DNA of 64,000 bases. It comes from an uncultured bacterium (GTDB lineage Bacteria; Patescibacteriota; Minisyncoccia; Minisyncoccales; UBA10102). Numbering within the stretch: position 1 is the stretch's first letter; each line of letters begins with the position of its first letter. Below the pieces are notes generated by a model. That model was not told where the DNA came from. It saw nothing but the letters and a program-made list of their open reading frames with translations, and did no database searches. Where the stretch lies: assembly GCA_913054235.1 (NCBI GenBank), contig CAJXJI010000001.1:6868-70867 (forward strand). Direction: 5' to 3'. This document shows positions 14,252-33,298 of the stretch, one piece after another. Made by a program: the position numbers and the translations under genes.

Positions 14252-15121
14252 CTATTTTGCCAAGAAATCTTTTATATACCTTGGTAAAACAGCTGAAGCG
14301 GCAGCAATGTCTGGGAACCAATATTTCAAATTCATTTTTTTTGCCTTCTTAAATTTACTTTTTAAAGCACTATAAGATACATTTAAAAAATCAGAATCTG
14401 AAGCCATAGTAAAGGTAAACAATCCCTCTTGATACGATGGAACTACTGCAGCGCGAACACTCACAAAGCGAAAGATACTTTCCAATCGCTTTTTAATAAG
14501 TGCTACAAGCTTTGGTTGGCAACTTAAGGAACCTGACTGCACGGAAATAATCCCCCCCTTCTTAAGAATCTTTTTTACATCGTAATAAAACTTCTTTGAG
14601 ATAAGGTCTTGTGCTGGTCCTCCAGGATCTGAAAGATCCATGATAATAATATCAAACAATCCCTTATATTCTTGAACAAATTTCTTCCCATCTTCAATAA
14701 CAAGATGGGTTCTTTTATCATAAAACGCATTCTTTGATATAGAAGGAAGGTATTTTCTTGCAATATCAATCGCTTTTTTATCTATCTCAACCATCCAAAC
14801 TTCCCTTACTGATGTATGCTTTAATACTTCCTCTAGTGCGCCTCCATCAGCTCCACCAATAATCAAAACACTCTTGGGAGAAGAATGCAGGAATAAAGGT
14901 GCCTGGCAAAGCATTTCATGGTAAATAAACTCATCCTTTGGTGTTGTTTGTAAAATGCCATCTAAAAATAATGCTCTTCCATAAAACTCCAAGTCAAGCA
15001 CATCAATTTCCTGATATGCAGATTTCCCGGAATACAGTTTCTTTTTTACCTCATACCCAATCACCACCTTTGTTTCATCAAAAGGAACTTCGTCTACAAA
15101 TACAATATTGCGTTTCTTCAT
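14252..15121 (-). CDS. Aminopropyltransferase (spermidine synthase family), paralog 2
   Basis: SAYQEIDVL...LFLDGILQTTPKDEFIYHEML...VLIIGGADGGALEEVLKH...VEID...DLSDP: full SpeE signature. Confidence 0.85.
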   Translation of the reverse strand: MKKRNIVFVDEVPFDETKVVIGYEVKKKLYSGKSAYQEIDVLDLEFYGRALFLDGILQTTPKDEFIYHEMLCQAPLFLHSSPKSVLIIGGADGGALEEVLKHTSVREVWMVEIDKKAIDIARKYLPSISKNAFYDKRTHLVIEDGKKFVQEYKGLFDIIIMDLSDPGGPAQDLISKKFYYDVKKILKKGGIISVQSGSLSCQPKLVALIKKRLESIFRFVSVRAAVVPSYQEGLFTFTMASDSDFLNVSYSALKSKFKKAKKMNLKYWFPDIAAASAVLPRYIKDFLAK

Positions 15122-15122
15122 A

Positions 15123-15971
15123 CTATTTTTTAACCAAGCTTAGTATCTCAAACAAAGCTCTTGTAGTTAAAAACTCTGTTATCTGGTTTCCCTTTATGGG
15201 TTTTAAGCAACAAACATCAAAACCTACAATATTGCCTGCTATAGCATGCATTAAATTCTTAAATTGAGAAAAGTATATTCCGTCTGGCTCTGGCTGATGT
15301 ACTGCTGGCGCAATACTTGGATCAAAAACATCTACATCAAGAGTAATGTACACATCTTCGTTTTGCGTAAATTCTTCAATAACCTTACTTACTGCTTCCT
15401 TATTTTCCTGGATATCCTGTGCGCTAACATATGTAATGCCACTCTCTTCAATAAACTTCAATTCTTTTGCATCACATGATCTCACTCCTACTAAAAGAAT
15501 GTTCTTTGGATCTATGATTTCGCTTAATCTTCTAAGCCATGTTGCTCCATTTACCCTTGCATCAAACTCGCCATTCCATGAAGTACTTAGGTCCACAATA
15601 TTATCGTCTTCATACTCATCTTTTAAATCACAGTGGGCATCAAAACTTATCACTTTAATATCCTTTTTAAAAGCTGGGATAGTAAAGAGCGATGGATGGT
15701 CCCCCGCAATCGCAACCGGTATTTTATTATTCTCTACAATGAGGCGAGTATACTTTGTGATATCTTCATTGTTTTTAGGCTTTAAATCCCCGGCATCTAC
15801 AACTCGCACGCCTTCAAGTAATTCCTTTTTACTTTCAATATCAAAATCCTCCATGTACACAGGAGTTTGACGCAGTGCCTTTGCGCCATCAGAAAATCGC
15901 TTTCCGATAGGCACGCCAAAGAAAACAACATTTGCTTCTTTAAAACTATACGGTGAATTCAAAAACTTCAT
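15123..15971 (-). CDS. speB: Agmatinase-family ureohydrolase (SpeB-like; possibly N1-aminopropylagmatine ureohydrolase)
   Basis: Arginase-family Mn ligand motifs AGDHPS, DAHCDL and ITLDVDVFDPSIAP. Confidence 0.8.
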   Translation of the reverse strand: MKFLNSPYSFKEANVVFFGVPIGKRFSDGAKALRQTPVYMEDFDIESKKELLEGVRVVDAGDLKPKNNEDITKYTRLIVENNKIPVAIAGDHPSLFTIPAFKKDIKVISFDAHCDLKDEYEDDNIVDLSTSWNGEFDARVNGATWLRRLSEIIDPKNILLVGVRSCDAKELKFIEESGITYVSAQDIQENKEAVSKVIEEFTQNEDVYITLDVDVFDPSIAPAVHQPEPDGIYFSQFKNLMHAIAGNIVGFDVCCLKPIKGNQITEFLTTRALFEILSLVKK

Positions 15972-15989
15972 AGAAAATTAAAAGGAACT

Positions 15990-16853
15990 TTACTTAAAGG
16001 AAGGAGGGAAAACACTTGAGGCAAGATGCATTGCTGGAGAATAGTATAAGGTAGAAATCTTTCTTTGCTTATATCTTTTTTCAAGAACAGTTTTTGTTAT
16101 ATTTTTAAGATTCACTTTTAAAGATGCAACAGGAAAAGAATGCTCATCTCGAGGAAAGCTCCCAACAAAAGCGCGGTGTAATTCATAGAAAGGAAATACT
16201 TTTTTCATAACAATTCGTGCTTTCATTCCAAAGGTATCAGAAATATATCCGGTCTGCGCAGAAAAAATGCCGTCTTTGGTAAGAGCATTTTTGACAGCAC
16301 GCAAAAACTTCTCTTCAAAAAGTTTTGCTGCCATGATTCCATCTGGATCGTTGGAATCAAGAATTATACAATCAAAATAGTTTTTATACTTCAAAATAAA
16401 CTCGATTCCATCAGTTACCACAATCTTACTTCTCTTATCTTGAAAAGCTGAACGACATAATGTGGGAAGATATTTTTTTGCAACCTGAATCACTTTCTCA
16501 TCAATCTCAACTAAAAACGCTTCTTTTACAGGGTGCTTTAGTACTTCACGTAACGCTCCTCCATCTCCACCACCAATAATGAGGACTCGCTTAGGAGAAG
16601 GATGGTTCATTAATGCAGGGTGCACCAGCATTTCATGGTACACAGCTTCGTCTTTTGTGGAAAGCTGCACTAATCCATCAAGAAAAAACATTCTGCCATA
16701 CCCCTGCGTGTCAAAAATATCTATACTTTGATACTTACTCTTTCCCGTATATATCTTTTTTTTTATTGCAAAACCTGCAAGAAATACTTCTTTTTCTCCA
16801 GGAAGACATCCTTCAATCGCCCAGGTCTTTTTTAGAATTGAAATCTTTCTCAT
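15990..16853 (-). CDS. speE: Aminopropyltransferase (spermidine synthase), paralog 1
   Basis: SKYQSIDIF...FFLDGLVQLSTKDEAVYHEML...VLIIGGGDGGALREVLKH...VEIDEKV...DSNDP. Confidence 0.88.
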   Translation of the reverse strand: MRKISILKKTWAIEGCLPGEKEVFLAGFAIKKKIYTGKSKYQSIDIFDTQGYGRMFFLDGLVQLSTKDEAVYHEMLVHPALMNHPSPKRVLIIGGGDGGALREVLKHPVKEAFLVEIDEKVIQVAKKYLPTLCRSAFQDKRSKIVVTDGIEFILKYKNYFDCIILDSNDPDGIMAAKLFEEKFLRAVKNALTKDGIFSAQTGYISDTFGMKARIVMKKVFPFYELHRAFVGSFPRDEHSFPVASLKVNLKNITKTVLEKRYKQRKISTLYYSPAMHLASSVFPPSFK

Positions 16854-19201: not shown

Positions 19202-20926
19202 TCAAGGCAGAAATGAATTGATTTTCGCTCGAGTAAAGAATCCAACATACCCATTTCCCTTTGCAAGATTTACAGGAGTTAAAATATCATCGGCATACTT
19301 TTCCTGAAACCGAATTACCGCATTGAGAGTTAGGGGACCAAAGTTTCCCGTTACTAAACCTTCAGGATAAATCTCCTCTCCTTGTGCTTTCAAAAACTCC
19401 TGTAAACAACTAACTTTTCCTCCTTTCATACCAAAAAACAGGTTGCCAGAAATACTGTTGCAAGCTACCTTCACTCCTCCAAGTTTAAGAGCAAGCTCTG
19501 TCTGGAGTCTTGCTATCTCTTTGCGTAAAAACTCAATCTGGCTTAATAGCTGTGAAATAAGGGCATCTTCTTCTTGCGGCGTTCTGCTTGAAGCCGTCGC
19601 AACAAAAGAAAAAGGATGCGACAAGTAAGGCTCCTCTAGCTTAGTGCTCTTGGTCTTTGAAAAAGGAAGAAAGATAATTGAGCGAACCTCACTATTAAAC
19701 TTTGGCAGCACCACGCTCCCTCCTCCCTCAAGATTTAATTCTAAGGTATGCACAGAAAATGTGCGATCAACATTCTCTATAATATATGGGACATCAAACA
19801 GGGCAGATGAATTTCCTTGAAACTTCACTTCCAGAACTTCCTGCCCTCCCAATATCTTTACCCAATTTCCAGCCCAATCTTTCGTAGAGTTGTTTAGCGT
19901 TAAGGTGCTGTTTCCAACTCCCGGAAGAAAATTGGTCTGAGGAATAATTCTAAAGTTTACCAAATGCGGGTTGTGGTAGCAATAGCGTTCCCCGTAGGAA
20001 CAATCATTTAAAAACAATGCTATGAGCCAATCAGAAAACACCTGAGTAAAGGTCTTCTCAAATTTGCCTTTCGCTAATGCGTCGTTTAAGGAAACAATCC
20101 CCACTTCGTGGGAATTTAAAGAATCTGCTAAGACCTGCACCCCATATTGATCAACTAAATACTGAGAAAACAAATGCACTGCTCCATAGTCTACAGTTAT
20201 ATTAAACCACTCTGTGAGTGAATTGGTGGAGTCGGAAAGAAAGTTTTCAACCCTTTGTTTTACCACACTGGTTTCATATGAGAGATCGTATCCCAAAAGT
20301 GTTGAGGCATATTCAGCCCGCACTTCATTGAGCCACACTTCTTCCGTAACATCTTTTAGGCGATTCTTTTGGTTAAAGGTAATAACATGCACAAACTCAT
20401 GGGCTAAAAAACTCTTGAGCAAAGGGCTTTGCAAGTTCTTTGCATTAAGATAAATCATCTCCCGTTCATTAGACTTTGGATTCTGCAAACGCAAAAATTC
20501 GTCTCCGTAATTTGTGTATCCTCCGGCATGCTCTCTCATTTCATGAAACAGCACGGTAATAATAGGGTCATTATCAATACCGGGCTTCCATTCTGAGCCA
20601 AAGGTCTGCGTTAATCTAGGATATGCATTTTGCTCAAATTCGTCAGCTAAAGCAATAAGTGATTGTTCGCCTTGTTCTCGTGCGTTTTCAGAAAGACTAG
20701 CCCACCAAGTCTTCTCAATATAGAAATATATCGTTGAGTTGGCGACTTGAAGCACGGCGTCAAGCTCTTCTCTTTGTTTTATGTCGTATTCTGAGTCAAC
20801 AGAAAAACGCTGTTGATCACCTAAAACATCAGCTATGACCCCTAAAGGCAAAAACAAGGCGCTTAAAAGAACGCCTGCAAAAAACAGTTTACTGAGATTT
20901 TGAACTTGCATTGAGAAGATTTGCAT
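19202..20926 (-). CDS. Secreted HExxH zinc metallopeptidase with C-terminal coiled-coil plus peptidoglycan-binding-like (PG_binding_1) module
   Basis: Signal peptide LSKLFFAGVLLSALFLPLGVIA; HEFVHV zinc motif; coiled coil IEFLRKEIARLQTELALKL. C-terminal domain VSCLQEFLKAQG...GNFGPLTLNAVIRFQEKYADDILTP...GYVGFFTRAKIN. The start is uncertain (track 21013; internal Met about 20926). Confidence 0.7.
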   Translation of the reverse strand: MQIFSMQVQNLSKLFFAGVLLSALFLPLGVIADVLGDQQRFSVDSEYDIKQREELDAVLQVANSTIYFYIEKTWWASLSENAREQGEQSLIALADEFEQNAYPRLTQTFGSEWKPGIDNDPIITVLFHEMREHAGGYTNYGDEFLRLQNPKSNEREMIYLNAKNLQSPLLKSFLAHEFVHVITFNQKNRLKDVTEEVWLNEVRAEYASTLLGYDLSYETSVVKQRVENFLSDSTNSLTEWFNITVDYGAVHLFSQYLVDQYGVQVLADSLNSHEVGIVSLNDALAKGKFEKTFTQVFSDWLIALFLNDCSYGERYCYHNPHLVNFRIIPQTNFLPGVGNSTLTLNNSTKDWAGNWVKILGGQEVLEVKFQGNSSALFDVPYIIENVDRTFSVHTLELNLEGGGSVVLPKFNSEVRSIIFLPFSKTKSTKLEEPYLSHPFSFVATASSRTPQEEDALISQLLSQIEFLRKEIARLQTELALKLGGVKVACNSISGNLFFGMKGGKVSCLQEFLKAQGEEIYPEGLVTGNFGPLTLNAVIRFQEKYADDILTPVNLAKGNGYVGFFTRAKINSFLP

Positions 20927-21554
20927 ATTCAACAAACTTTTCGTTATTCCCTGTTTCCAAAAAGTATGAAATAAGCCAGTTAAACAGATCAAAGTGATTA
21001 TTCGTTGCCTCAAGTCCTTTTAGAAATAAAGCTTCTATTTCCTCTGGCGATTTTAAAAGTCTAAATTGATATAGATAGCCAAGACTTCGGTATGCAGGCA
21101 CTCTATTAGGATAGGCCTCAAGGAGAGTGAGCCATGCAGTTTCTGATTCCTCGTATCTTGCCAAGTCGCTATAGATATTTGCAATGTTATTTAAGGCAGT
21201 AATGTTAGTTAAATCAAGCAAAAGCGCTTTTCCATACCACTCTAAAGCCTCCTCCTTTTCTTCCAATAGATTGAGGTTCGCTCCCATTGCCAAGAGCGCG
21301 TTTAAATCGTTTATACTATCTTCATCTTCCAAATCATCAAGCGCATTCAGTATTCCTTGAACAAATTCATCTCCCCGAGGATGCCTATCTTTTAAAGATT
21401 CATATGGCACACGGTCAATGACTACTGGGGCTAAAATATCATCACGTGTTTCTTGTTTCTTTTCTGATTGTTTTAGATTTTTTGAAGAGCTTAAAACAAA
21501 ACCAACTCCGACTAACAAAAGCACAACAATAATAACAACAATAATTTTTTGCAT
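20889..21554 (-). CDS. TPR-repeat protein with N-terminal transmembrane anchor
   Basis: N-terminal MQKIIVVIIVVLLLVGVGFVL; repeated AxxxYxxLGxxY-type TPR units (ALEWYGKALLLD, NIANIYSDLARYEE, AWLTLLEAYPNRVPAYRSLGYLY). Confidence 0.7.
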   Translation of the reverse strand: MQKIIVVIIVVLLLVGVGFVLSSSKNLKQSEKKQETRDDILAPVVIDRVPYESLKDRHPRGDEFVQGILNALDDLEDEDSINDLNALLAMGANLNLLEEKEEALEWYGKALLLDLTNITALNNIANIYSDLARYEESETAWLTLLEAYPNRVPAYRSLGYLYQFRLLKSPEEIEALFLKGLEATNNHFDLFNWLISYFLETGNNEKFVEYANLLNASSKSQ

Positions 21555-21586
21555 ATGTTCAATATATCATAAAGAAATCCAAACCA

Positions 21587-21607
21587 AAAGCCCCCTTAGG
21601 GGGCTTT
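21587..21607 (-). terminator. Hairpin terminator (AAAGCCCCC-uaag-GGGGCUUU then UGGUUU) closing the GC-rich block
   Basis: Perfect 9-bp GC-rich stem seen directly; followed on the minus strand by TTGGTTTGG. Confidence 0.45.
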
Positions 21608-21609
21608 GG

Positions 21610-21970
21610 CATCCTCACCAGGAATGGATTACTGTTGAAGTAATAAGTTCAATTGCGCTCTTGTTTTGGGGCAGAAACTCAACTGCTTGAGTTTCTGCGA
21701 GTTTGCCTGCCCCGAGTCCCCGAGAAACAGAACTATGTAAACCCAGGGCCCTGCTTTGAAAAACTGTCGAAGGCAAATCGTTTTACAAGGCAGGTACATT
21801 TACCTACTGTCCCAATAGGGAATTCAGTTGGGCGCGAGTCTTCGGGTTGCGAGTGGGATAGCCAAGGCTGCACCATTGGGTGCGTAACTGCTTCTGCTCA
21901 AGACCCTTCAGTGGAATGTGCAAATGCTGGAGGCGCATGGGATGGATTCACCTGTCTTTTTGAGCCTAAA
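21610..21970 (-). ncRNA. Candidate structured ncRNA of unknown class (GC-rich, hairpin-dense intergenic block)
   Basis: Local GC is about 50% against about 38% around it. Perfect 12-bp hairpin GCAGAAACUCAA/UUGAGUUUCUGC at 21671-21698; further stems GCACC-auug-GGUGC and CAGGUA/UACCUG. Bounded by hairpin terminators at 21587-21607 and 21968-22003. Strand inferred from terminator orientation. Confidence 0.35.
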
Positions 21971-22003
21971 AACCAAACCCCACCCCCCTTTTGAGGGGTG
22001 GGG
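21968..22003 (-). terminator. Rho-independent terminator after the giant surface-protein gene
   Basis: Minus strand: GCCCCACCCCUC-aaaa-GGGGGGUGGGG followed by TTTGGTTTTT, about 50 nt past the stop at 22053. Confidence 0.6.
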
Positions 22004-22052
22004 CTGGAATCCTCATCTTGCTTTAGCTGAGGCAAGATGCACAAGAGTAGGA

Positions 22053-25000
22053 TTAGTAACTGTAGGTAGGTCCTGTTGCGGCAGAACCGTAGCTATCGGT
22101 TTCTGTCTTATAGGTAGCAGCACCGGAAGTGTTTAGTGGGGTGTAATCCCAGCTAAATCCTTCAACCTGTGCTGTTGTAACCTGGTTTGGTCCTTTGGCT
22201 CCAGGAATTCTGATTCCAAAGCTTGCCGATACTGAAGTTACGAGACCTGAACTATCTTCTGCTCGCTTCACGTTTGACGTGTCAGCTTTCACTACCAATG
22301 TCATTGTTTGGCCTGCAGTTACTGTCTGCTCGGCCAAAGCCGTTACAGCAGAACGTGCATCAAATACAACAGTACCAGAACCTCTAGTAAGGTTGTAGAT
22401 GTCAGCCGGCTCAGTGCCAGCCACAGCAGCTGCGTTGGTGGAAATTCCAGATATTGCTACCTGGGTTACAGTAACTGTGTTTGCTCCAATAGAAGCAACT
22501 GTTGCTGTACCACTATCTGCAGCAGTACCCGCTATAACGTAGAGCTGATCACCAACCTGATACTTTGAAGCATCTGCAACGTCATAAGTCAAACCACTAT
22601 TTGCAGTGGCGCCATCAACGTCAGATACCGTGTACACAATGTAGGTGTCATCAGTTGCTATGGTGCCATCTACAACATCGGCTGCCATAACCATAACTGT
22701 AGAACTCGTAATACTGGCCACTGTGGTTGTTCCAGAGTTCGCTTCTGTACTTAAATCAATATAAAGGACAGAGTCACCAACTAGGAATCCAGCTGTACCA
22801 GCAACAGTAGCAGTAGCTGTACTACCTGAAGTAGCTGTAGTTCTGGTGTTTGTTGCAAGACCTGATACTTCAGCGATTATAGTATCGCCATTAAACAACT
22901 TAAAGTCTTTTACATTCCAGTCTGCGCTACTACCAAGCTTCTCTACTACCAAGCTTCTAAACGTCATGTCTCGGCTTCCAGAAGCTTTAATGCTAATGGT
23001 TCCAACAACCTGATCAAGGGCAGGTGATGCAACTCCTCCTGTTGGAAGAGAGTCACTTCCTGTGACAGTAAGCACTGGTTGCACCTCTTCATACCTCATG
23101 GTGTTACCCGTAAGGCTATTGGTGTTCGTGATCTTAGTAACATGGTCTCCAGCTGCTGCGATTGCAATTGAACCAGCAGGGCTAAAGGCAAGGCCTGAAA
23201 TTGCACTACCTGAAGCCACAGCCGTGGTCACGATTGCAAATCCTGCCTCGTTATCATCAGAGTCATATACATACACCAGATCACCTACGGCGTAAGCTAC
23301 CCCAGCGTTTGCATTTCCAAGAATGGCCTCTACCTTAGAAAGCTTGGTGATAATATCACCTGCTGCCCAAGAAGTGTCAGTTGCTTCTCCTTCAAGATCC
23401 AGGTCAGCTGATGCCAAGTTCACTGAATCATCATCCGTAGTTACCAATGCAAATCCTGGAGCTGTGGTTGTTCCAGCATCAGCTGTTACAGTCCAGTATA
23501 CAACGTCACCCACGTCTCCAGAGTAAGCATCCGTACCTGCGGTATACGCAGTTCCAGATGAAAGGGACTCTTGCGTGGTCAAACCAGAGCCTGATCCAAT
23601 TACATCAGCAGCGCTAAATCCGAGAACTCCAAGGTTTGATGCGGTCAACGTTCCAACTACCGTAGTATCCACAACTGCGGTTATTACTCGGGAACCATAT
23701 GAAGGAACAATGATCTCATTTCCTGAGCCAAAGGTAAACGTTGCAGTTCCTGCTGTGAGAGCTGTTGAAGGGTCGCTTGAAAGACCCGTGCCAAGCAACT
23801 TCACATTTGCAATGTTTCCTGCTCCATTCAATGTTCGCAGTACAAGCCTTTCTACCTTCATGTCTTCTACTGTTGCAGACAACTTAATTCTTGCCATTTC
23901 AATTCCGGTTAAACCAGGGGTCAAGAATCGGCTGGAAGCAGCTCCGGTAGAATCCATAGCAACTGTTACAGTTCCTGATTCAACAATAGTCAAAGTTCTT
24001 GCTGTCACAGTCGCTGAAGGACCCGTAATGGATGATCCAGATGTTGCACCAACTCCCGTAACATCAGCTGCATTCAGAGAAGCAATGTATGTGTCATTGG
24101 TACCTCCATCAGAAGCTGCGGTGTTTGCGCTTGCATACACATCAACCTGCACTGTCGTGGAAGCTAGAATATTCAGCTCTCCTGAGACAGTAAAGGTGTT
24201 GTTGGTAGCAGTAGGGGAGGCAATAGTGCTTCCCATCTGTGCTCCAGTGCTTGTCAGCTTTACCTTCATGTTGGTCAAACCAGTTGCAACCGCAACATCA
24301 CCTGCAGTAAGATCTACTACGATAGTAGAGATGTTTACTCCTTCAGAAGAGTTAGTTTGCATCAAGAAAGAACCAATAAGAAGCTCTGACTGACCCTCAA
24401 TCACAGTAGCAGCACCTATAGAAGCATTGTTCACAACCGTCAAGGTTGCGGTAGATGCTGTTAAGGTGTTAGTTGAGATATGAGCGTTTGCGTCAGACGC
24501 AGTTCCATAGGTGTTGGATGTCATTCTCTTATAGTACACTCGTCCTAGTCCACCAATGATGGTTTCTGCATCATCGATGCCGGTTCCAGCGTCAACCACA
24601 ACTTTTACCTTAAGTACGGTTCCAGCTGGAATAGTGTAGTACGTAGAAAATGTTACTTGGTCACCACTGTCATTTGCAGCGTTATCATCATCAAACAAAT
24701 CATCTGCTCCAGCTGACTGACTGTGAAGAGTTTGTCCTGCGTCAGTCATGAACTTAATTGTTCCAGAAAAGTCTCCATCGTCAGAGCTTCCACCAAGCTC
24801 ATAGTCAGCTCGCTGAATCTGAATATCTTCACCCTGAGCCTGAAGTTCCCAGACACCAACAACAATGTTGGCCTGTCCGATACCAAAGGTTCCTGAAGGT
24901 GAGCTACCTGACTTGTTCACGGTCAAAGTTCCCTGACTCACAGTCAAGAGGTTGTATCCTGAATTTCCAGTGGTGATGTCACCAATAGGAATTGCGGAGT

Positions 25001-26402
25001 CAACTGTTCCTGCGGCTGTTGGCAAAATACCAAGGCCAGTAGATACTCCGACTACCTGAAGATCGTAATCGTTTTGAATGATAACCTGTCCAGTTCTGTT
25101 AGAACCAGAGATTACATCAACTCGAACGGTTAAATCTTTTGTTGTTCCTTTCAAAATCGTGTAAGGCTCGGAGAGAATAAACTCAACCGACTTGCTGGTT
25201 GCTCCAGCAACCGTTGCCAACACAACTCCGTTAGGATCAACCAAATCAAAGTTTACGAGATCAGCATCAGCTGCAGTTCCATTCTGGAACAATGTCAATC
25301 TGTTAATCTTCGCGTCTTCGTTTCCAGTTGTCTCAACAAAGCGGAACTTGCTCAAAACATAATCAGTTCGTCCAATATCCACACTTACTGAGGTTGAGGT
25401 CTGTGAGACCACATCTATAGTTACTGCTCCCAAAATGCTTGAGGTGGCAGTAAGAGTCTGAAGGTTTCCATTTATAGGAAGACCTGTTGGGTCACCGTTT
25501 ATGCCAGTTACGTTAAATCCAATAGTTCCTGCAGTTGCTGCAGAGTTTACGTGCACTTGCACATTAAACGTGGTAGAGCCTCCTGCTGAGGCCACAATAG
25601 GATCTCCAGTAAATGGAATAGTTACTTTGCCATCAGCTAAAGTAACAACACTTCCGTGTCGATTACCGTTTGCGTCAACGATTAATACTCCGTCAACATT
25701 CGTGTCAATGGAAAGACCAAATCTCTCCACAGTAACAGATGTGACAGAAGCTCCACTTGCTCCTCCATTTACTTGCACCTGAACTACGGTGTTGTAAGCA
25801 GAAGATGCTCCCAATGTTCCAGCTGCTGGGTTGTTAAATCCAACTTGTACGCTGGAAGGACCGGTTGTTGGAGCTGGGGTTGGAGTACCAGGCGTTGGGC
25901 TTGGCGTTGGTGATGCTACAAACAATGCATTGATCTTTGCTCTTGAGGAAGAACCAAAGAATCCGGTTCCAGCACTCAATCCCAAAGGCTCCAATACATT
26001 TGCAGCATACTTGTCCTGAAATTTAATAACTCCGCTTCGGGTAATTGGCCCAAAGAAAGTTGTTTCATTTCCAGGAGAGCCAGCTCCAGAGTCTGCCAAT
26101 TTCGTGGCAGGGTCGGAGTTCAAGAACATCTGGAGGTACATTACGTCCTGTCCCTTAGATCCTACCGTAAGACTTGTGTCCCAGGTAAAACCAGCAGGAA
26201 TGCCAGAAACGCTTACCGTTCCAGTGTCTCCTCCGTCTATGTCTGTTAATTGCGCTTGCAATGTTGCCAATTGCGCCATAAGAGCGTCAATCTGTACCTG
26301 CAATTCAGCTGCGGTTAACGCAGAAGCTGGTGCAGGAACAGCTACGATCCCAAGCATAGCAACAACAGTTACAACGGCAAATATTTTCTTAAATCTACTC
26401 AT
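22053..26402 (-). CDS. Giant (1449 aa) secreted Thr/Ser/Gly/Ala/Val-rich surface protein: N-terminal coiled-coil plus PG-binding-like anchor, then tandem beta-rich domains (putative S-layer/adhesin)
   Basis: Signal peptide MSRFKKIFAVVTVVAMLGIVAVPAPASA. Coiled coil LQVQIDALMAQLATLQAQL. PG_binding_1-like domain GQDVMYLQMFLNSD...FFGPITRSGVIKFQDKYAANVLEP...GFFGSSSRAKIN. Recurring modules of the form ...R(F/L)..V.K..R..F..(L/V)...G......V.F.L.D.NG.V.A.V.G. The coding GC is much higher than the genome background. Confidence 0.75.
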   Translation of the reverse strand: MSRFKKIFAVVTVVAMLGIVAVPAPASALTAAELQVQIDALMAQLATLQAQLTDIDGGDTGTVSVSGIPAGFTWDTSLTVGSKGQDVMYLQMFLNSDPATKLADSGAGSPGNETTFFGPITRSGVIKFQDKYAANVLEPLGLSAGTGFFGSSSRAKINALFVASPTPSPTPGTPTPAPTTGPSSVQVGFNNPAAGTLGASSAYNTVVQVQVNGGASGASVTSVTVERFGLSIDTNVDGVLIVDANGNRHGSVVTLADGKVTIPFTGDPIVASAGGSTTFNVQVHVNSAATAGTIGFNVTGINGDPTGLPINGNLQTLTATSSILGAVTIDVVSQTSTSVSVDIGRTDYVLSKFRFVETTGNEDAKINRLTLFQNGTAADADLVNFDLVDPNGVVLATVAGATSKSVEFILSEPYTILKGTTKDLTVRVDVISGSNRTGQVIIQNDYDLQVVGVSTGLGILPTAAGTVDSAIPIGDITTGNSGYNLLTVSQGTLTVNKSGSSPSGTFGIGQANIVVGVWELQAQGEDIQIQRADYELGGSSDDGDFSGTIKFMTDAGQTLHSQSAGADDLFDDDNAANDSGDQVTFSTYYTIPAGTVLKVKVVVDAGTGIDDAETIIGGLGRVYYKRMTSNTYGTASDANAHISTNTLTASTATLTVVNNASIGAATVIEGQSELLIGSFLMQTNSSEGVNISTIVVDLTAGDVAVATGLTNMKVKLTSTGAQMGSTIASPTATNNTFTVSGELNILASTTVQVDVYASANTAASDGGTNDTYIASLNAADVTGVGATSGSSITGPSATVTARTLTIVESGTVTVAMDSTGAASSRFLTPGLTGIEMARIKLSATVEDMKVERLVLRTLNGAGNIANVKLLGTGLSSDPSTALTAGTATFTFGSGNEIIVPSYGSRVITAVVDTTVVGTLTASNLGVLGFSAADVIGSGSGLTTQESLSSGTAYTAGTDAYSGDVGDVVYWTVTADAGTTTAPGFALVTTDDDSVNLASADLDLEGEATDTSWAAGDIITKLSKVEAILGNANAGVAYAVGDLVYVYDSDDNEAGFAIVTTAVASGSAISGLAFSPAGSIAIAAAGDHVTKITNTNSLTGNTMRYEEVQPVLTVTGSDSLPTGGVASPALDQVVGTISIKASGSRDMTFRSLVVEKLGSSADWNVKDFKLFNGDTIIAEVSGLATNTRTTATSGSTATATVAGTAGFLVGDSVLYIDLSTEANSGTTTVASITSSTVMVMAADVVDGTIATDDTYIVYTVSDVDGATANSGLTYDVADASKYQVGDQLYVIAGTAADSGTATVASIGANTVTVTQVAISGISTNAAAVAGTEPADIYNLTRGSGTVVFDARSAVTALAEQTVTAGQTMTLVVKADTSNVKRAEDSSGLVTSVSASFGIRIPGAKGPNQVTTAQVEGFSWDYTPLNTSGAATYKTETDSYGSAATGPTYSY

Positions 26403-26510
26403 TTTTGTAATGTTTTTTTGTTTTAATTTTTATGCGACTTATCTTTGAGTTTCGACCTTTAAAAAATTATCAATCCCACAGATTGTTAAGTGGGTTCGTC
26501 CTCAAATAAA

Positions 26511-27254
26511 TTAATTGGAAATCATCCAAATATTCTCTAATGCTTTCTGGTAGTTTGCCGCCTGATATGCACCAATAGCTTCTTTGAGCAATACTTCCTG
26601 CTCACTGGTCAATGATCTTTTAAGCAAATCATTTAACTCAGATTCAACTAGAATCTTGGTTGCGCTTTTCAATCCTGATGTTTCTTCTTCTCCGATAGTA
26701 GCACCCAAAATCTGCTCTATTTGAGCTTTACCCTTTTGCAATTGTACTAGTTCTCGAGAAGCCTGTAAAGCCTTTTCAGGTTCGTTTTCCACAAGGGCTA
26801 AAAGACCTCGTGAAACCTCTGCTACGCTTAGGTTAAATTCCTCTGTTGCAGAAGCAAGATTCTTTACCTTGTTCCCCTCAACTACCCTTCTTAAGTCTGC
26901 CAAGCGTCTTTCAGCTACCTTAAAGGTAGCTGAAGAGTCACTTCCTGTGGTTGCCTTTTCAATAATAGAGCGAACCGAGTATAGGGGGTCTCCAGGAAGA
27001 CTGTTTTGTGAAACCTTATACCCAATCCCTCCAAATACCACAAATGCCAAGACTGCAAAGATATAGGCTGGTCTTTCAAGGTATCGGACATAGGATACAA
27101 GATGTCCTATCTTGTAAATAAGGCTAGGATTTTGTCCTATCTCCTTATTAGCCTCATTTGGAATACTGGTCTTAGCAAAAAGCACCCAACTGTTTCTAGG
27201 TTCAATTTCCTTTAAGCGAGATAATTTTGTTATGAGATCCTTTTCGTAGGCCAT
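26511..27254 (-). CDS. Single-pass membrane anti-sigma-factor-like protein (DUF5667-like LPGDPLY motif)
   Basis: Cytoplasmic N-terminus, one TM helix (AYIFAVLAFVVFGGIGYKV), then SLPGDPLYSVRSIIEK and a helical extracytoplasmic domain. Sits immediately downstream of the ECF sigma gene. Confidence 0.6.
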   Translation of the reverse strand: MAYEKDLITKLSRLKEIEPRNSWVLFAKTSIPNEANKEIGQNPSLIYKIGHLVSYVRYLERPAYIFAVLAFVVFGGIGYKVSQNSLPGDPLYSVRSIIEKATTGSDSSATFKVAERRLADLRRVVEGNKVKNLASATEEFNLSVAEVSRGLLALVENEPEKALQASRELVQLQKGKAQIEQILGATIGEEETSGLKSATKILVESELNDLLKRSLTSEQEVLLKEAIGAYQAANYQKALENIWMISN

Positions 27255-27311
27255 TATAGTTATGACGTAAAATAAGGGAAAGTATTACACTATCGGCTAT
27301 CCTAATTTGCT

Positions 27312-27815
27312 CTAAACATCCACCTTGCCCTTTAGGGCTTGAATGGCTCTATGAACCCCTACTCTCACGTTCTCCTCAGTCTTGCCGGTAATTTGAGCTA
27401 TTTCAGGCACAGTGAGCTCATCTACATATCGCCAGATAATAAGGTCCTGATAGTCTCCTTGGAGCTTTGCTATAGCCTCTTTTATCCTATCCATTTCCAA
27501 GCTTACTTCGCCCTGTTCTCTTGTTCTTTCCTGAATATCTTCAATTTCAATAGTGGTTTTCTCAATAGATACCACGGTAATCTTTTTGCTCCTATAATGG
27601 TCTGCTATGACATTCCTTGCTATTTGGTAGACAAAGGCCTGAGGATTCTCAATTACAGGATTGTTCTTTTGAATATGCCTGTATAAGCGCAAAAACACCT
27701 CAGACGACAAATCCTCTGCCGTCTCAACTAAACTAACCTTCAGGTATATAAACCGATAGATCTTGTTGACATATTGATCGTATACCTGATTAAAATATTG
27801 ATCTATTTCTTCCAT
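27312..27815 (-). CDS. ECF-type RNA polymerase sigma factor (sigma-70 regions 2 and 4)
   Basis: Region 2 FIYLKVSLVETAEDLSSEVFLRLYRH...QAFVYQIARNVIADHYR; region 4 HTH LTVPEIAQITGKTEENVRVGVHRAIQALK; 167 aa. Confidence 0.85.
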   Translation of the reverse strand: MEEIDQYFNQVYDQYVNKIYRFIYLKVSLVETAEDLSSEVFLRLYRHIQKNNPVIENPQAFVYQIARNVIADHYRSKKITVVSIEKTTIEIEDIQERTREQGEVSLEMDRIKEAIAKLQGDYQDLIIWRYVDELTVPEIAQITGKTEENVRVGVHRAIQALKGKVDV

Positions 27816-27901
27816 ATCTATATGAATGTCCTACCGCATATGATAGGACAAATAGCCTACAAAGTCAATGTCCTAGTTTTATGCACAGTTATTCCCCAGT
27901 T

Positions 27902-28528
27902 TTAACGAATCTGATAAAAAATCTCATTCCACTCTCCTTGTCTGATAATAAAGCTACGCTGGAGTAAGTCATCTAAATCTCTTCGCAAAGTTCTTTTCGT
28001 AACTTCAGGAAGTACCTTTTGTAATTCCCAAACCTGTACTTTTGGCTTGTTTCGCATAAGCTCTAAAATCCTAGATTGTCTAAAGGAAAGCTTCCCTTTA
28101 GATACTGACGTATTTTCCTTGCTCTTTATAACAGGAACTGTCTGTCTTGTGCTTATATCTTGCTTCAGAACAACTCGCTCTTGATTTACTACTATTGATT
28201 TTTCGTGAATCTTACGTAAAAACTCTCCCACCCTGTTATACTCCCGCTCCAGCATTATAAAGTTTTCTGGGTTTATTTCAGCTGTGCGTTTTGCATAGTT
28301 TAAATAAGCTACAAGTTTACCAGTCTCCCGAATTGCTCTTGCGGTCACCGTAGGCCTTTGCCCTGACATAGCGGGGTTTTCTTGCACAAGCAAAATAAGG
28401 CTTACCAAAAGCTTATTTGAAGAATCTTGCACCTGAGCTCTTAAAGGATCCTCTCGGGGCAAGATATTAACTACTTTATGAGTAGCTACTATGAGACGAA
28501 CAAAAAAGTCAGCATTCATTATACGCAT
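27902..28528 (-). CDS. Putative transcriptional regulator with C-terminal DeoR-like winged-helix HTH
   Basis: C-terminal RQSRILELMRNKPKVQVWELQKVLPEVTKRTLRRDLDDLLQRSFIIRQ matches the HTH_DeoR pattern; the N-terminal 120 aa are unassigned. Confidence 0.5.
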   Translation of the reverse strand: MRIMNADFFVRLIVATHKVVNILPREDPLRAQVQDSSNKLLVSLILLVQENPAMSGQRPTVTARAIRETGKLVAYLNYAKRTAEINPENFIMLEREYNRVGEFLRKIHEKSIVVNQERVVLKQDISTRQTVPVIKSKENTSVSKGKLSFRQSRILELMRNKPKVQVWELQKVLPEVTKRTLRRDLDDLLQRSFIIRQGEWNEIFYQIR

Positions 28529-29828: not shown

Positions 29829-30548
29829 TCAAAGTCCAAGAAAAGTCCTCAGCACCGAAGAAGGAATAACAAAGATGTTTCTTTGAAGGTCAGCATCTGC
29901 TAAACCCGCAACTCTTCCTTCCACGTCAAACAAAGGAGCACCATCAACATTTTCATTCTCCACGATTGAAGTGGATAAAGAATCTTCTTCTACTTTCTTT
30001 ACAATCCCCATATTCACAATTAGAGTTCCTTCACCCTCCTCAATAATTTTTGCTAGTAATACCACTCGCTCTCCAAGCTTAACTCCCCCATTACCAACAA
30101 AACCAGCTGTTTTAAGTCCCATATCTTCTATTTTTAAAAGCACAAGATTATTTTTTACATCACGTTTTAAAACTTGGGCCTCCAATGGATCTTGTCCTTC
30201 AGGATATATCATAATCTTAAAGCCAGTTGGAACCAGGGAAGATAAAGTAACAATTAATCCGTCTGAAGTATATACAAGGCCAGAACCTGCTCGCGTGCCA
30301 GAACTCTTTAGCGCAACCACAGTATTTTTTACTTCTTGAATTGTCCTCTCTATTGCCTCATTCTCACGAACAAAAATCTGCTCTACGGGAGCTATTATTT
30401 GAGTTCTTGCATTCCAATCTTTTAAAAATTGCCAATCTGCAAAAGCAGGGTTTGCTGCCAAAGAAGGTAGCAAAAAAGCTTGGGACCAGAGGCCCCCAGC
30501 AGCTCCTGCTAAAAACAGAAGTAAAAACAAAAGAATTCGTCTTGTCAT
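29829..30548 (-). CDS. Catalytically inactive trypsin-fold HtrA/DegP-like pseudoprotease with signal/TM anchor
   Basis: Collinear with the neighbouring HtrA. GSGLVYTSDGLIVTLSSLV aligns with GSGFIVSPDGLIITNKHVV (His to Ser). NNLVLLKIED aligns with QDLAVLKIDQ (Asp to Asn). NVDGAPLFD aligns with GNSGGPLLN (the nucleophile Ser falls on Asp). No PDZ domain. Confidence 0.6.
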   Translation of the reverse strand: MTRRILLFLLLFLAGAAGGLWSQAFLLPSLAANPAFADWQFLKDWNARTQIIAPVEQIFVRENEAIERTIQEVKNTVVALKSSGTRAGSGLVYTSDGLIVTLSSLVPTGFKIMIYPEGQDPLEAQVLKRDVKNNLVLLKIEDMGLKTAGFVGNGGVKLGERVVLLAKIIEEGEGTLIVNMGIVKKVEEDSLSTSIVENENVDGAPLFDVEGRVAGLADADLQRNIFVIPSSVLRTFLGL

Positions 30549-33257: not shown

Positions 33258-33298
33258 AGAATATACTTAAAATACCACAAAAAAGAACATAAAGCAAC

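What the first reader, a model, noticed from the sequence alone, without database searches (positions are those of the whole stretch)
19202..26402. Shared coiled-coil + PG_binding_1-like module on two otherwise unrelated secreted proteins (C-terminal on the peptidase, N-terminal on the giant protein)
Peptidase C-terminus: coiled coil IEFLRKEIARLQTELALKLGG, then VSCLQEFLKAQG...GNFGPLTLNAVIRFQEKYADDILTP...GYVGFFTRAKINSFL. Giant protein N-terminus: LQVQIDALMAQLATLQAQL, then GQDVMYLQMFLNSD...FFGPITRSGVIKFQDKYAANVLEP...GFFGSSSRAKINALF. The (F)GP.T..AV..FQ..Y motif and the GFF...RAKIN ending are shared almost verbatim. This points to a common cell-wall docking cassette that tethers both a protease and a giant adhesin to the same envelope layer, which would be a lineage-specific anchoring system.
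Basis: seen in the sequence. Interest (0 to 1): 0.6.

Follow-up and report, generated by a model that had tools for sequence, protein, structure and literature searches.

The report
Shared cell-wall anchor on two proteins
Two unrelated secreted proteins of an ultra-small (Patescibacteria) bacterium, a giant probable surface-layer protein and a zinc protease, carry the same short coiled coil plus peptidoglycan-binding domain, most likely a portable wall anchor that is a lineage-typical variant of a well-known domain.

Summary
The C-terminus of the 574-aa peptidase and the N-terminus of the 1449-aa protein share a ~125-aa module (34% identity, E=9e-19, z=28 against shuffles). The rest of the two proteins is unrelated.

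The module is a ~25-32-residue heptad helix followed by a PG_binding_1 (PF01471) domain. Two loop insertions keep the window copies just under Pfam's cut-off. Profile and fold searches hit only known PG_binding_1 domains (1lbu, SleB, SleC, CtpB, endolysins).

The cassette is very common in Patescibacteria, at N- or C-termini of many surface proteins. Relatives of the giant protein keep its body but replace the cassette with three SLH domains or another module. This marks the cassette as an exchangeable wall anchor and the giant as an S-layer-type protein rather than a proven adhesin.

The peptidase is an M30-like (lugdulysin-like) HExxH enzyme. It forms a conserved family of at least 1730 clusters that always carries the cassette.

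Many species share the gene order HTH, ECF sigma, DUF5667, surface protein, (TPR), peptidase.

Peptidoglycan binding, oligomeric state and lattice formation are inferred, not shown. This is a lineage-typical variant of a known anchoring principle and is moderately interesting.

The parts
22053..26402 (-). Gene for the 1449-aa secreted giant protein, a putative S-layer-type surface protein
   Evidence: ORF and translation. No Pfam or NCBIfam hit. The body is rich in T, A, G, V and S, has no Cys and is acidic. Patescibacterial homologues of 915-1640 aa exist, some with N-terminal SLH domains.
26319..26402 (-). Signal peptide of the giant protein (residues 1-28, ...APASA|L)
   Evidence: Read from the sequence. 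No predictor was run.
26244..26318 (-). Coiled-coil segment of the giant protein (residues 29-53, LTAAELQVQIDALMAQLATLQAQLT)
   Evidence: Conserved a/d heptad pattern in alignment A1. The AlphaFold2 model has a helix at module residues 7-31. The profile hits GCN4 and other coiled-coil chains.
25914..26186 (-). PG_binding_1-type domain of the giant protein (residues 73-163), with two loop insertions
   Evidence: Profile hit to 1lbu_A at E=2.4e-7, with an 8-residue insertion relative to it. pLDDT is 91-98. Foldseek matches are SleB, SleC, 1lbu, CtpB and an endolysin. The Pfam HMM itself does not hit this copy.
25857..25913 (-). Pro/Thr-rich linker (SPTPSPTPGTPTPAPTTGP) between the anchor and the body
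   Evidence: Sequence. Body homology to relatives with other anchors starts just after it.
21976..22005 (-). Strong terminator-like hairpin (13-bp stem, 9 GC pairs, T tail) 48 nt after the giant gene's stop codon
   Evidence: This is a consensus match only.
26452..26459 (-). AAGGTCGA motif about 50 nt upstream of the giant gene's start codon, a candidate promoter or operator element
   Evidence: It is the only occurrence in the window. GGTCG is present in 48 of 74 orthologous upstream regions, against 5.0 +/- 2.0 of 73 control windows.
20889..21554 (-). Gene for a 221-aa membrane-anchored TPR protein that overlaps the peptidase start
   Evidence: Pfam TPR_12 at 33.5 bits. An N-terminal hydrophobic helix is visible in the sequence. 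The order TPR, peptidase, MurB is conserved in L004 and L006.
19202..20926 (-). Gene for the 574-aa secreted HExxH metallopeptidase carrying the C-terminal cassette
   Evidence: Identical to database protein P0058. At least 1730 homologous clusters exist, almost all about 565-590 aa.
19997..20824 (-). M30-like (lugdulysin-like) catalytic domain. HEFVH lies at 20387-20401 and the invariant Glu of WLNE at 20324-20335.
   Evidence: A3 profile against 7bb8_A gives E=6.5e-11. Foldseek against 7bb8 gives E=2.9e-15 and TM-score 0.65. H176, E177, H180 and E201 are invariant.
19589..19939 (-). Beta-sandwich domain of the peptidase (residues 330-446), similar to PPC and collagen-binding domains
   Evidence: AlphaFold2 strands 330-446. 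Foldseek matches the C. perfringens enterotoxin C-domain, the collagenase PPC domain and the ColG collagen-binding domain at E about 1e-4.
19484..19579 (-). Coiled-coil segment of the peptidase (residues 450-481, PQEEDALISQLLSQIEFLRKEIARLQTELALK)
   Evidence: AlphaFold2 helix 450-481. Heptad pattern in A1.
19205..19459 (-). PG_binding_1-type domain of the peptidase (residues 490-574)
   Evidence: Pfam PF01471 at 22.2 bits (cut-off 23) and PG_binding_3 at 19.7 bits. Aligned to the giant's copy. Helices 503-514, 531-548 and 563-572.
26511..28528 (-). Conserved upstream block: HTH_DeoR-like gene (27902-28528), ECF-type sigma factor (27312-27815) and DUF5667 protein (26511-27254)
   Evidence: Pfam. 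The same three genes precede the cassette-bearing surface-protein gene in 36 to 44 of 80 loci from other species and in L001, L003 and L005.

Best explanation
The window comes from a Patescibacteria genome of the Parcubacteria group. The closest named relatives are Candidatus Wildermuthbacteria.

Both proteins are exported. Each carries the same portable anchoring cassette: a short parallel coiled coil of about 3.5 to 4.5 heptads, a short linker, and a three-helix PG_binding_1 domain. This domain variant has lineage-typical insertions: one in the helix 1 to helix 2 loop, and the 8-residue stretch 'AxEILxPx' before the last helix.

The cassette sits directly after the signal peptide of a 1449-aa, Cys-free, Thr/Ala/Gly/Val/Ser-rich protein. 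There it most likely pins an S-layer-type lattice or surface protein to the cell's own peptidoglycan, through a Pro/Thr linker.

The cassette also sits at the C-terminus of an M30-like zinc metallopeptidase, after a PPC-like beta-sandwich. There it holds the enzyme in the same wall compartment.

The coiled coil probably oligomerises the single PG-binding domain to raise avidity and acts as a short stalk.

Shown here:
- The two copies are homologous.
- The fold family is PG_binding_1.
- The cassette is modular and occurs at either terminus.
- The cassette is swapped for SLH domains in relatives.
- The gene neighbourhood is conserved across species.

Inferred:
- Actual peptidoglycan binding.
- The oligomeric state of the coiled coil.
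- Lattice formation by the giant protein.
- Any substrate relationship between the protease and the surface protein.
For: Homology of the two copies:
- E=9e-19 and z=28.5.
- Each copy is closer to its orthologues in other species (48-62% for the N-terminal type) than to its partner in the window (34%). The duplication is therefore ancient, not a recent copy.

PG_binding_1 identity:
- Pfam gives a near-threshold hit to the peptidase copy.
- About half of the module homologues carry a precomputed PF01471 hit.
- Other cassette proteins score 30-60 bits against PF01471.
- The module profile hits 1lbu at E=2.4e-7, then 5tv7, phage phiKZ gp144, CtpB and SleB.
- The AlphaFold2 model has pLDDT 87.9, and its top 14 Foldseek matches (probability 0.97-1.00) are PG_binding_1 domains.

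Coiled coil:
- Hydrophobic residues are conserved at L10, I14, L17, I21, L24 and L28 of alignment A1, a 4-3-4-3-4 spacing.
- Long helices are predicted in both models.

Anchor role:
- Homologues of the giant's body carry, in place of the cassette, three SLH domains (P0369, P0371, P0373, P0374), a canonical PG-binding domain with or without the coiled coil, or an unrelated N-terminal module.
- Body homology begins right after the anchor in each case.

Distribution:
- 43,163 cluster representatives match at E<=1e-3 and 1,591 at E<=1e-30.
- The matches are N-terminal, C-terminal or tandem, and 18 of the top 150 carry the full coiled coil plus domain.
- 538 of 599 pattern matches in species-representative genomes are confirmed relatives.
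- The 80 best loci are almost all Patescibacteria, mostly with the cassette at the N-terminus of a 1090-1490-aa protein.

Peptidase:
- The family always carries the cassette in the homologues sampled.
- It is M30-like by profile and fold.

Gene linkage:
- The peptidase lies directly downstream of the surface-protein gene in 9 of 40 loci where the downstream region is visible. This count does not include the Nealsonbacteria locus L005 or the window itself, which show the same arrangement.
- In L004 and L006 the upstream giants of about 2850 aa carry the cassette at their C-terminus.

Other support:
- MurB lies next to the peptidase gene, so the organism makes peptidoglycan.
- A preprint predicts S-layer proteins of 643-1274 aa in Patescibacteria and lists PG-binding among bacterial S-layer anchors.
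- Cryo-EM of a Nealsonbacteria strain shows an apparent S-layer.
Against: - No binding, localisation or expression data exist.
- The Pfam HMM misses the giant's copy, and the peptidase's copy is 0.8 bits under the cut-off.
- No structure was predicted for the giant's body, and it has no Pfam match. Its S-layer status therefore rests on the SLH-bearing homologues, its composition and the literature.
- The coiled-coil similarity between the two copies is weak on its own (z=4.9), and the oligomeric state was not modelled.
- Peptidase adjacency to the surface-protein gene is recurrent but not universal. It was seen in 9 of 40 loci and is absent in L001 and L003.
- PG_binding_1 domains also serve as protein-interaction or regulatory modules elsewhere, for example the MMP pro-domains (own knowledge).
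Confidence: 0.65

Rival explanations
1. The cassette still anchors to the wall, but the giant protein is not a lattice-forming S-layer protein. It is a fibrous adhesin or another large surface protein used for host attachment.
For: - No lattice prediction or structural model of the body was made.
- The body has no Pfam match.
- Patescibacteria are largely episymbionts and encode other giant surface proteins nearby. Examples are the 2592-2869-aa proteins with LTD and Big_5 domains, some carrying the same PG-binding domain.
Against: - Homologues carry triple SLH domains at the N-terminus, a hallmark of S-layer and S-layer-associated proteins.
- The body is Cys-free, acidic and rich in Thr, Ala and Gly.
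- In the loci examined there is one conserved gene of this kind, at a fixed position after sigma and DUF5667, followed here by a strong terminator-like hairpin.
- Its size range matches the S-layer proteins predicted in Patescibacteria.
Confidence: 0.2
2. The PG-binding domain recognises the wall of the host cell rather than the bacterium's own wall. Both proteins would then be attack or attachment factors of an episymbiont: an adhesin plus a host-directed protease.
For: - Patescibacteria are commonly epibionts (abstracts listed).
- PG_binding_1 domains occur in phage endolysins and secreted effectors that act on foreign walls (hits 3bkh, 5nm7 and 4nso).
Against: - The cassette sits at the membrane-proximal N-terminus of the giant, exactly where relatives carry SLH domains that bind the cell's own wall polymers.
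- Some relatives of this lineage live on archaea that lack peptidoglycan (L051) yet keep the domain.
- The organism makes its own peptidoglycan, as shown by MurB.
Confidence: 0.1
3. The cassette is mainly a regulatory or oligomerisation module rather than a wall anchor. It could be an autoinhibitory or substrate-gating domain, as in the MMP pro-domains or CtpB.
For: - CtpB protease and zymogenic SleC are among the structural matches.
- The MMP pro-domains share this fold (own knowledge).
Against: - The same cassette occurs on non-enzymatic giant proteins and on dozens of unrelated architectures, often in tandem arrays.
- It is interchangeable with SLH domains.
- In the peptidase it follows a long helix and a beta-sandwich, far from the active site in the model.
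Confidence: 0.05

Closest known systems
PG_binding_1 (PF01471) domains. The archetype is the N-terminal domain of the Streptomyces albus Zn D-Ala-D-Ala carboxypeptidase (PDB 1lbu). Other examples are SleB, SleC, CtpB and phage phiKZ gp144.
   Same: - The same three-helix fold.
- The same core motif (G..G..V..LQ..L ... FG..T..AV..FQ ... G..G..T...L).
- The domain is attached as an accessory module to wall-active or wall-associated proteins.
   Different: - The window-type copies have an 8-residue insertion (AxEILxPx) before the last helix.
- The N-terminal type also has a longer helix 1 to helix 2 loop (SGAGSPGNETT).
- The domain is preceded by a conserved heptad helix.
- Pfam matches reach only profile positions 1-41 of 57, and the window copies fall below the cut-off.
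SLH-domain anchoring of S-layer proteins and S-layer-associated enzymes in Bacillota and Deinococcota
   Same: - An N-terminal wall-binding module shared between the main surface-layer protein and surface enzymes.
- Here SLH and the cassette are literally interchangeable on homologous bodies.
- The combination of a coiled coil with a wall-binding domain recalls SlpA and OmpM, which have SLH followed by a coiled coil (PMC9388160 abstract; details from own knowledge).
   Different: - The fold is different.
- The presumed ligand is peptidoglycan itself rather than a pyruvylated secondary wall polymer.
- There is a single domain plus a coiled coil instead of three tandem SLH repeats.
The Clostridioides difficile CWB2 family: SlpA and the Cwp proteins, including the SlpA-processing protease Cwp84
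   Same: - One anchoring module is shared by the S-layer protein and by otherwise unrelated surface proteins. Homology is restricted to the anchor (PMC8881574).
- A protease with the same anchor is encoded near the S-layer gene. The role of Cwp84 is from own knowledge.
   Different: - The fold is unrelated and the ligand is different (the PSII polymer).
- Cwp84 is a cysteine protease, whereas this enzyme is an M30-like zinc protease.
- No processing of the giant protein has been shown here.
Lugdulysin and hyicolysin, MEROPS family M30 (PDB 7bb8)
   Same: - The catalytic fold.
- The HExxH motif plus a downstream Glu (WLNE).
   Different: - Only 18% identity.
- No Pfam family reached its cut-off on the catalytic region, and no M30 model was among the weak hits listed.
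- This enzyme has an added beta-sandwich, coiled coil and PG-binding tail.
- The family is confined to Patescibacteria in the hits seen.
S-layer proteins predicted for Patescibacteria (bioRxiv 10.1101/2024.05.28.596244)
   Same: - The same phylum and the same size class.
- That study notes modular anchors and PG-binding among bacterial S-layer anchors.
   Different: - I could not retrieve those sequences, so whether they belong to the same family is untested.
- In the parts of that study I read, neither the coiled coil plus PG-binding cassette, nor its sharing with a conserved protease, nor the gene cluster is described.

Membership tests
PG_binding_1 (PF01471) | Score at or above the Pfam gathering cut-off (23 bits) | tested here: inconclusive
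   The peptidase copy scores 22.2 bits and the giant's copy has no hit. Aligned homologues of both types do pass: PF01471 is precomputed for about half of the hits, and other cassette proteins score 30-60 bits.
PG_binding_1 (PF01471) | Sequence-profile relationship to solved PG_binding_1 domains | tested here: met
   The A1 profile hits 1lbu_A at E=2.4e-7 and 5tv7 at 3.2e-5. It also hits 3bkh, CtpB, 5nm7 and SleB.
PG_binding_1 (PF01471) | Three-helix bundle fold | tested here: met
   AlphaFold2 pLDDT is 91-98 over the domain. Foldseek top matches are 6tci (target TM-score 0.72), 9h68, 1lbu, 4c2e, 5nm7 and 5tv7, with probability 0.97-1.00.
PG_binding_1 (PF01471) | Binds peptidoglycan | not testable with these tools
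   Needs a pull-down with sacculi.
Parallel coiled coil | Conserved a/d heptad periodicity in a long helix | tested here: met
   A1 consensus positions L10, I14, L17, I21, L24 and L28. Helices at module residues 7-31 and peptidase residues 450-481 in the models.
Parallel coiled coil | Self-association and defined oligomeric state | not testable with these tools
   No multimer prediction was available. The pattern of Ile at a and Leu at d favours dimers in GCN4 variants (own knowledge). This is a lead only.
Bacterial S-layer protein | Secreted, with a dedicated cell-envelope anchoring domain | tested here: met
   A signal-peptide-like N-terminus is visible in the sequence. The PG_binding_1 cassette is present, and homologues carry SLH domains instead.
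Bacterial S-layer protein | Self-assembles into a two-dimensional lattice and is the outermost abundant protein | not testable with these tools
   No multimer or lattice modelling, proteomics or imaging was available. The only indirect clues are the composition and the terminator-like hairpin.
Peptidase family M30 (hyicolysin, lugdulysin) | HExxH motif plus a downstream Glu as zinc ligand, and the M30 catalytic fold | tested here: met
   H176, E177, H180 and E201 are invariant. The profile hits 7bb8_A at E=6.5e-11, with WLNE aligned. Foldseek gives E=2.9e-15.
Peptidase family M30 (hyicolysin, lugdulysin) | Match to a curated family model | tested here: not met
   No M30 model was listed at E<=1. 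Only weak hits appeared: Peptidase_M78, SprT-like and DUF2268 in Pfam, and flagellinolysin and MXAN_6640 HExxH in NCBIfam. It is best called M30-like.

The most novel reading that the evidence does not exclude
The coiled coil plus PG_binding_1 cassette is the S-layer anchoring system of Parcubacteria. The gene block HTH, ECF sigma, DUF5667, surface protein, (TPR), M30-like protease is a dedicated envelope-assembly island. In it, the co-anchored protease matures or remodels the surface lattice, and the neighbouring sigma factor or HTH regulator drives the surface-protein gene through the conserved AAGGTCGA element.
Probability: 0.25. Interest if true: 0.6.

Novelty: new variant of a known kind. 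Interest (0 to 1): 0.4.

Why it matters
The cell envelopes of Patescibacteria (the candidate phyla radiation) are almost uncharacterised, although these organisms are abundant and depend on surface contact with hosts.

A recognisable, portable anchor gives a simple sequence handle for listing the wall-associated surface proteome of these uncultured bacteria. The cassette marks the probable S-layer protein, a universally conserved protease and many other surface proteins.

It also explains why standard domain searches miss part of that proteome. Loop insertions push these copies under the Pfam cut-off.

The conserved gene cluster and the upstream motif give testable hypotheses on how the surface layer is regulated and processed.

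The anchoring principle itself is already well known from SLH and CWB2 systems.

Tried and rejected
- **Chance or low-complexity similarity:** rejected by the shuffle test and by orthologue conservation.
- **Recent intragenomic copy:** rejected. Each copy is closer to its orthologues in other species than to its partner in the window.
- **More copies in the window:** none found by tblastn or HMM.
- **Pfam and NCBIfam on the giant protein:** no hit.
- **Genome scan with the 40-sequence alignment A1:** It was repeated with the 7-sequence alignment A2.
- **Fold search of the module against afdb50**, for an independent taxonomic view: the library was not available.
- **PDB 7o92 lead** (a coiled coil from a Giovannonibacteria protein, residues 18-54): it was weakly hit by the A1 and A3 profiles. 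A single-sequence query did not reproduce the hit, and no paper was found. It may reflect only the GCN4 fusion parts, so I dropped it.
- **Universal peptidase adjacency to the surface-protein gene:** not supported. It was seen in 9 of 40 informative loci and is absent from L001 and L003.
- **AAGGTCGA motif upstream of the TPR-peptidase genes**, which would suggest a shared regulon: not found.
- **Matching L051 (Ca. Microsyncoccus archaeolyticus) to the 1185-aa S-layer protein listed in the preprint:** the lengths differ (1296 aa), so there is no link.
- **Literature searches** for a described cassette of this kind in Patescibacteria: nothing specific found.

Full report
**What is there.** The region holds three minus-strand genes:
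- a 1449-aa protein at 22053-26402;
- a 221-aa TPR protein at 20889-21554;
- an HExxH peptidase in the ORF 19202-21013.

The peptidase ORF is over-extended. An identical database protein (P0058) starts at ATG 20926 and is 574 aa long. Other members of its cluster start at 20911. Both large proteins begin with signal-peptide-like segments, read from the sequence.

**Checking the observation.** All quoted motifs are present.
- BLASTP of the peptidase C-terminus against the giant's N-terminus gives 34% identity over 140 columns, E=9e-19.
- In a shuffle test the local alignment score is 156, against 27.0 +/- 4.5 for shuffles (z=28.5).
- The PG-binding part alone gives z=24.7.
- The helical part alone gives only z=4.9, as expected for generic heptads.
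- The remaining 444 and 1284 residues share nothing.
- Only these two copies exist in the 64-kb window.

**What the module is.** Pfam places PG_binding_1 on the peptidase copy at 22.2 bits, just under the 23-bit cut-off. It finds nothing on the giant.

A search with the giant's module found 57 short Patescibacteria proteins or fragments, about half with PF01471 precomputed. I built a 40-sequence alignment (A1) of N-terminal-type and C-terminal-type modules. It shows the canonical PG_binding_1 core plus an 8-residue insertion (AxEILxPx) before the last helix. A minority of members lack this insertion and then look fully canonical.

The A1 profile hits the archetypal PG-binding domain of 1lbu at E=2.4e-7, with exactly that insertion as a gap. 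It then hits 5tv7, phage phiKZ gp144, CtpB and SleB. The AlphaFold2 model (pLDDT 87.9) has a 25-residue helix followed by a three-helix domain. The top 14 Foldseek PDB matches (probability 0.97-1.00) are PG_binding_1 domains: SleB, SleC, 1lbu, CtpB, an AP3 phage endolysin and 5tv7. The next matches are weak and include L,D-transpeptidases. Other cassette-bearing proteins pass the Pfam cut-off at 30-60 bits but match only profile positions 1-41 of 57. This is consistent with the insertion splitting the match.

The helix has conserved hydrophobic residues at a 4-3-4-3-4 spacing (L10, I14, L17, I21, L24, L28 in A1). It attracts coiled-coil chains in the PDB search.

**What the two carriers are.**

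*The peptidase.*
- It belongs to a tight family of at least 1730 clusters, almost all 565-590 aa. The named members are all Patescibacteria (Wildermuth-, Nealson- and Parcubacteria).
- Every homologue sampled keeps the C-terminal cassette.
- A family profile hits lugdulysin, the Staphylococcus lugdunensis M30 zinc peptidase, at E=6.5e-11. HExxH and the WLNE glutamate are aligned.
- The AlphaFold2 model (pLDDT 85) matches lugdulysin at Foldseek E=2.9e-15.
- The model also has a PPC- or collagen-binding-like beta-sandwich, a 32-residue helix and the PG-binding domain.

*The giant protein.*
- Its body has no Pfam or NCBIfam match.
- It is Cys-free, acidic, and 58% Thr, Ala, Gly, Val and Ser.
- Its 36 detectable relatives are Patescibacteria proteins of 915-1640 aa.

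**The key evidence on function.** These relatives keep the body but vary the N-terminus. Body homology starts at giant residue 153-201 in those that carry a different N-terminal module, directly after the anchor and linker. The N-terminal alternatives are:
- the same cassette;
- a coiled coil plus a canonical PG-binding domain without the insertion;
- a PG-binding domain without the coiled coil;
- three SLH domains (PF00395, up to 117 bits);
- a further module with no Pfam match.

Interchange with SLH, the classic S-layer anchor, indicates two things. The cassette is a wall anchor, and the protein belongs to the S-layer or S-layer-associated class.

A preprint predicts S-layer proteins of 643-1274 aa in several Patescibacteria. 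It lists PG-binding domains among modular bacterial S-layer anchors. Cryo-EM of a Nealsonbacteria strain shows an apparent S-layer, and that genome has three PG-binding proteins. I could not test whether the preprint's proteins are the same family.

**Distribution and architecture.** An exhaustive profile search found 43,163 cluster representatives at E<=1e-3, 19,969 at E<=1e-10 and 1,591 at E<=1e-30.
- Among the best 150, the domain occurs at N-termini, at C-termini and in tandem arrays of up to about ten.
- The host proteins range from 187 to 2484 aa.
- 18 of the 150 have the full coiled coil plus domain, at either end.

In species-representative genomes, 538 of 599 pattern matches were confirmed relatives.
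- The 80 best loci are almost all labelled Patescibacteria: Nealson-, Giovannoni-, Vogel-, Lloyd-, Kaiser-, Komeili- and Wildermuthbacteria, and Paceibacter.
- Four are labelled otherwise (L061, L064, L081, L085). Two of these, L064 and L081, show the same upstream genes, so mis-binning seems likely for them.
- In most loci the cassette opens a 1090-1490-aa protein.

**Gene neighbourhood.** Upstream of the giant gene lie an HTH_DeoR-like gene, an ECF-type sigma factor and a DUF5667 gene. Among the 80 loci, the sigma factor precedes the cassette-bearing gene in 44, and the HTH and DUF5667 genes each in 36. The same block appears in L001, L003 and L005.

Downstream, the peptidase follows within 1.5 kb in 9 of the 40 loci where enough sequence is visible.
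- In a complete-chromosome-sized Nealsonbacteria contig, the order is HTH, sigma, DUF5667, a 1076-aa cassette protein whose body is 27% identical to the giant, then the peptidase.
- In the closest relatives the order is a giant protein (with a PaaX-like gene after it in L006), TPR, peptidase, MurB, AdoMet decarboxylase, SecA. The upstream giants of about 2850 aa carry the cassette at their C-terminus.
- Elsewhere (L001, L003) the peptidase is not adjacent.

A strong terminator-like hairpin follows the giant gene. The TPR and peptidase genes overlap, which suggests two transcription units. MurB next door shows the organism makes peptidoglycan.

**Mechanism proposed.** After export, the coiled coil oligomerises and presents several PG-binding domains to the cell's own peptidoglycan. 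The Pro/Thr linker then lets the large body extend outward as a surface layer. The protease is held in the same compartment by the same cassette.

Homology, fold, modularity, the SLH swap and synteny are shown here. Binding, stoichiometry, lattice formation and any protease-substrate link are inferred.

The closest functional analogues are the SLH systems of Bacillota and the CWB2 family of C. difficile. In the latter, SlpA and otherwise unrelated wall proteins share only the anchor (PMC8881574). The co-anchored protease Cwp84 matures SlpA (own knowledge).

**Rivals.**
- *The giant is an adhesin rather than a lattice protein.* This remains possible.
- *The domain binds the host's wall.* This is disfavoured by the membrane-proximal position, the equivalence with SLH and the archaeal hosts of some relatives.
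- *The cassette is a regulatory domain.* This is disfavoured by its presence on many non-enzymes.
- *The similarity is due to chance.* This is excluded.

**Verdict.** It is a lineage-typical variant of a known anchoring principle, not a new kind of system. Its value lies in annotating the surface proteome of Patescibacteria and in the conserved cluster it reveals.

Noticed in passing
window 26452-26459 (-); upstream regions of the cassette genes in L007-L086: A conserved motif, roughly AAAGGTCGA(C/T)(A/G)(C/A)G, lies mostly 42-65 nt before the start codon of the cassette-bearing surface-protein genes. GGTCG is present in 48 of 74 upstream regions, against 5.0 +/- 2.0 of 73 control windows. It occurs once in the window. 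Some loci have a second AAGGTC about 20 nt downstream. It may be a promoter or operator for the adjacent ECF sigma factor or HTH regulator.
   Followed up: partly
window 26511-28528 (-): The block HTH_DeoR-like gene, ECF sigma factor, DUF5667 gene lies directly upstream of the surface-protein gene. It is conserved across many Parcubacteria species (sigma in 44, HTH and DUF5667 each in 36 of 80 loci). This suggests a dedicated regulatory module for the surface protein.
   Followed up: partly
window 22053-22112 (-); C-termini of P0351-P0375: The giant-protein family ends in a conserved motif, ...(D/E)SYPVxGxTLxY, with a C-terminal aromatic residue. A second body type that carries the same N-terminal cassette ends in ...WSDxS...H...DWTNxY.V.GLP....SK. 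The function of both motifs is unknown.
   Followed up: no
P0366, P0367, P0375, P0377-P0380, P0382 (homologues of the giant protein): A further alternative N-terminal module (AGDLIKMxGxxAVYY...GKRYVFPNExTYxSWY..., about 200-290 aa) replaces the cassette on homologous bodies. It has no Pfam match and may be an undescribed wall-binding domain.
   Followed up: partly
window 20889-21554 (-): A small TPR protein with an N-terminal transmembrane helix overlaps the peptidase start by 23-38 nt. TPR-peptidase pairing is conserved in the close relatives L004 and L006, and a TPR gene lies downstream of the surface-protein gene in L018, L039 and L057. It may be a partner or chaperone of the protease.
   Followed up: partly
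alignment A1; peptidase residues about 489 and 507 (window about 19406-19462): A conserved cysteine pair (C...F..NL......V.CLQ) flanks the first strand and helix of the PG-binding domain. It occurs in most cassettes of both types and in the window's peptidase. The window's giant lacks both cysteines. It may be an optional disulfide.
   Followed up: no
L004 515-9124; L006 6-8516; L001 17771-24083: Other giant proteins of 2592-2869 aa in related genomes also end in the coiled coil plus PG-binding cassette or contain PG_binding_1. Some have LTD, Big_5 or CarboxypepD_reg domains. One locus can hold three or more such proteins.
   Followed up: partly
PDB 7o92 (hit): A solved coiled-coil fragment from a Candidatus Giovannonibacteria protein (UY81_C0065G0003, residues 18-54, GCN4 fusion) is weakly matched by the cassette profiles. 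Its position right after a signal peptide suggests it might be the same helix. A single-sequence query did not confirm this.
   Followed up: partly
window 14252-16853 (-) and 29829-34654 (-): The neighbouring genes are ordinary housekeeping genes: two spermidine-synthase-like genes, an arginase-family gene, ClpB, and two trypsin-like (HtrA-type) proteases, one of which has a PDZ domain. The order HtrA, ClpB ... HTH, sigma is syntenic with L001.
   Followed up: no
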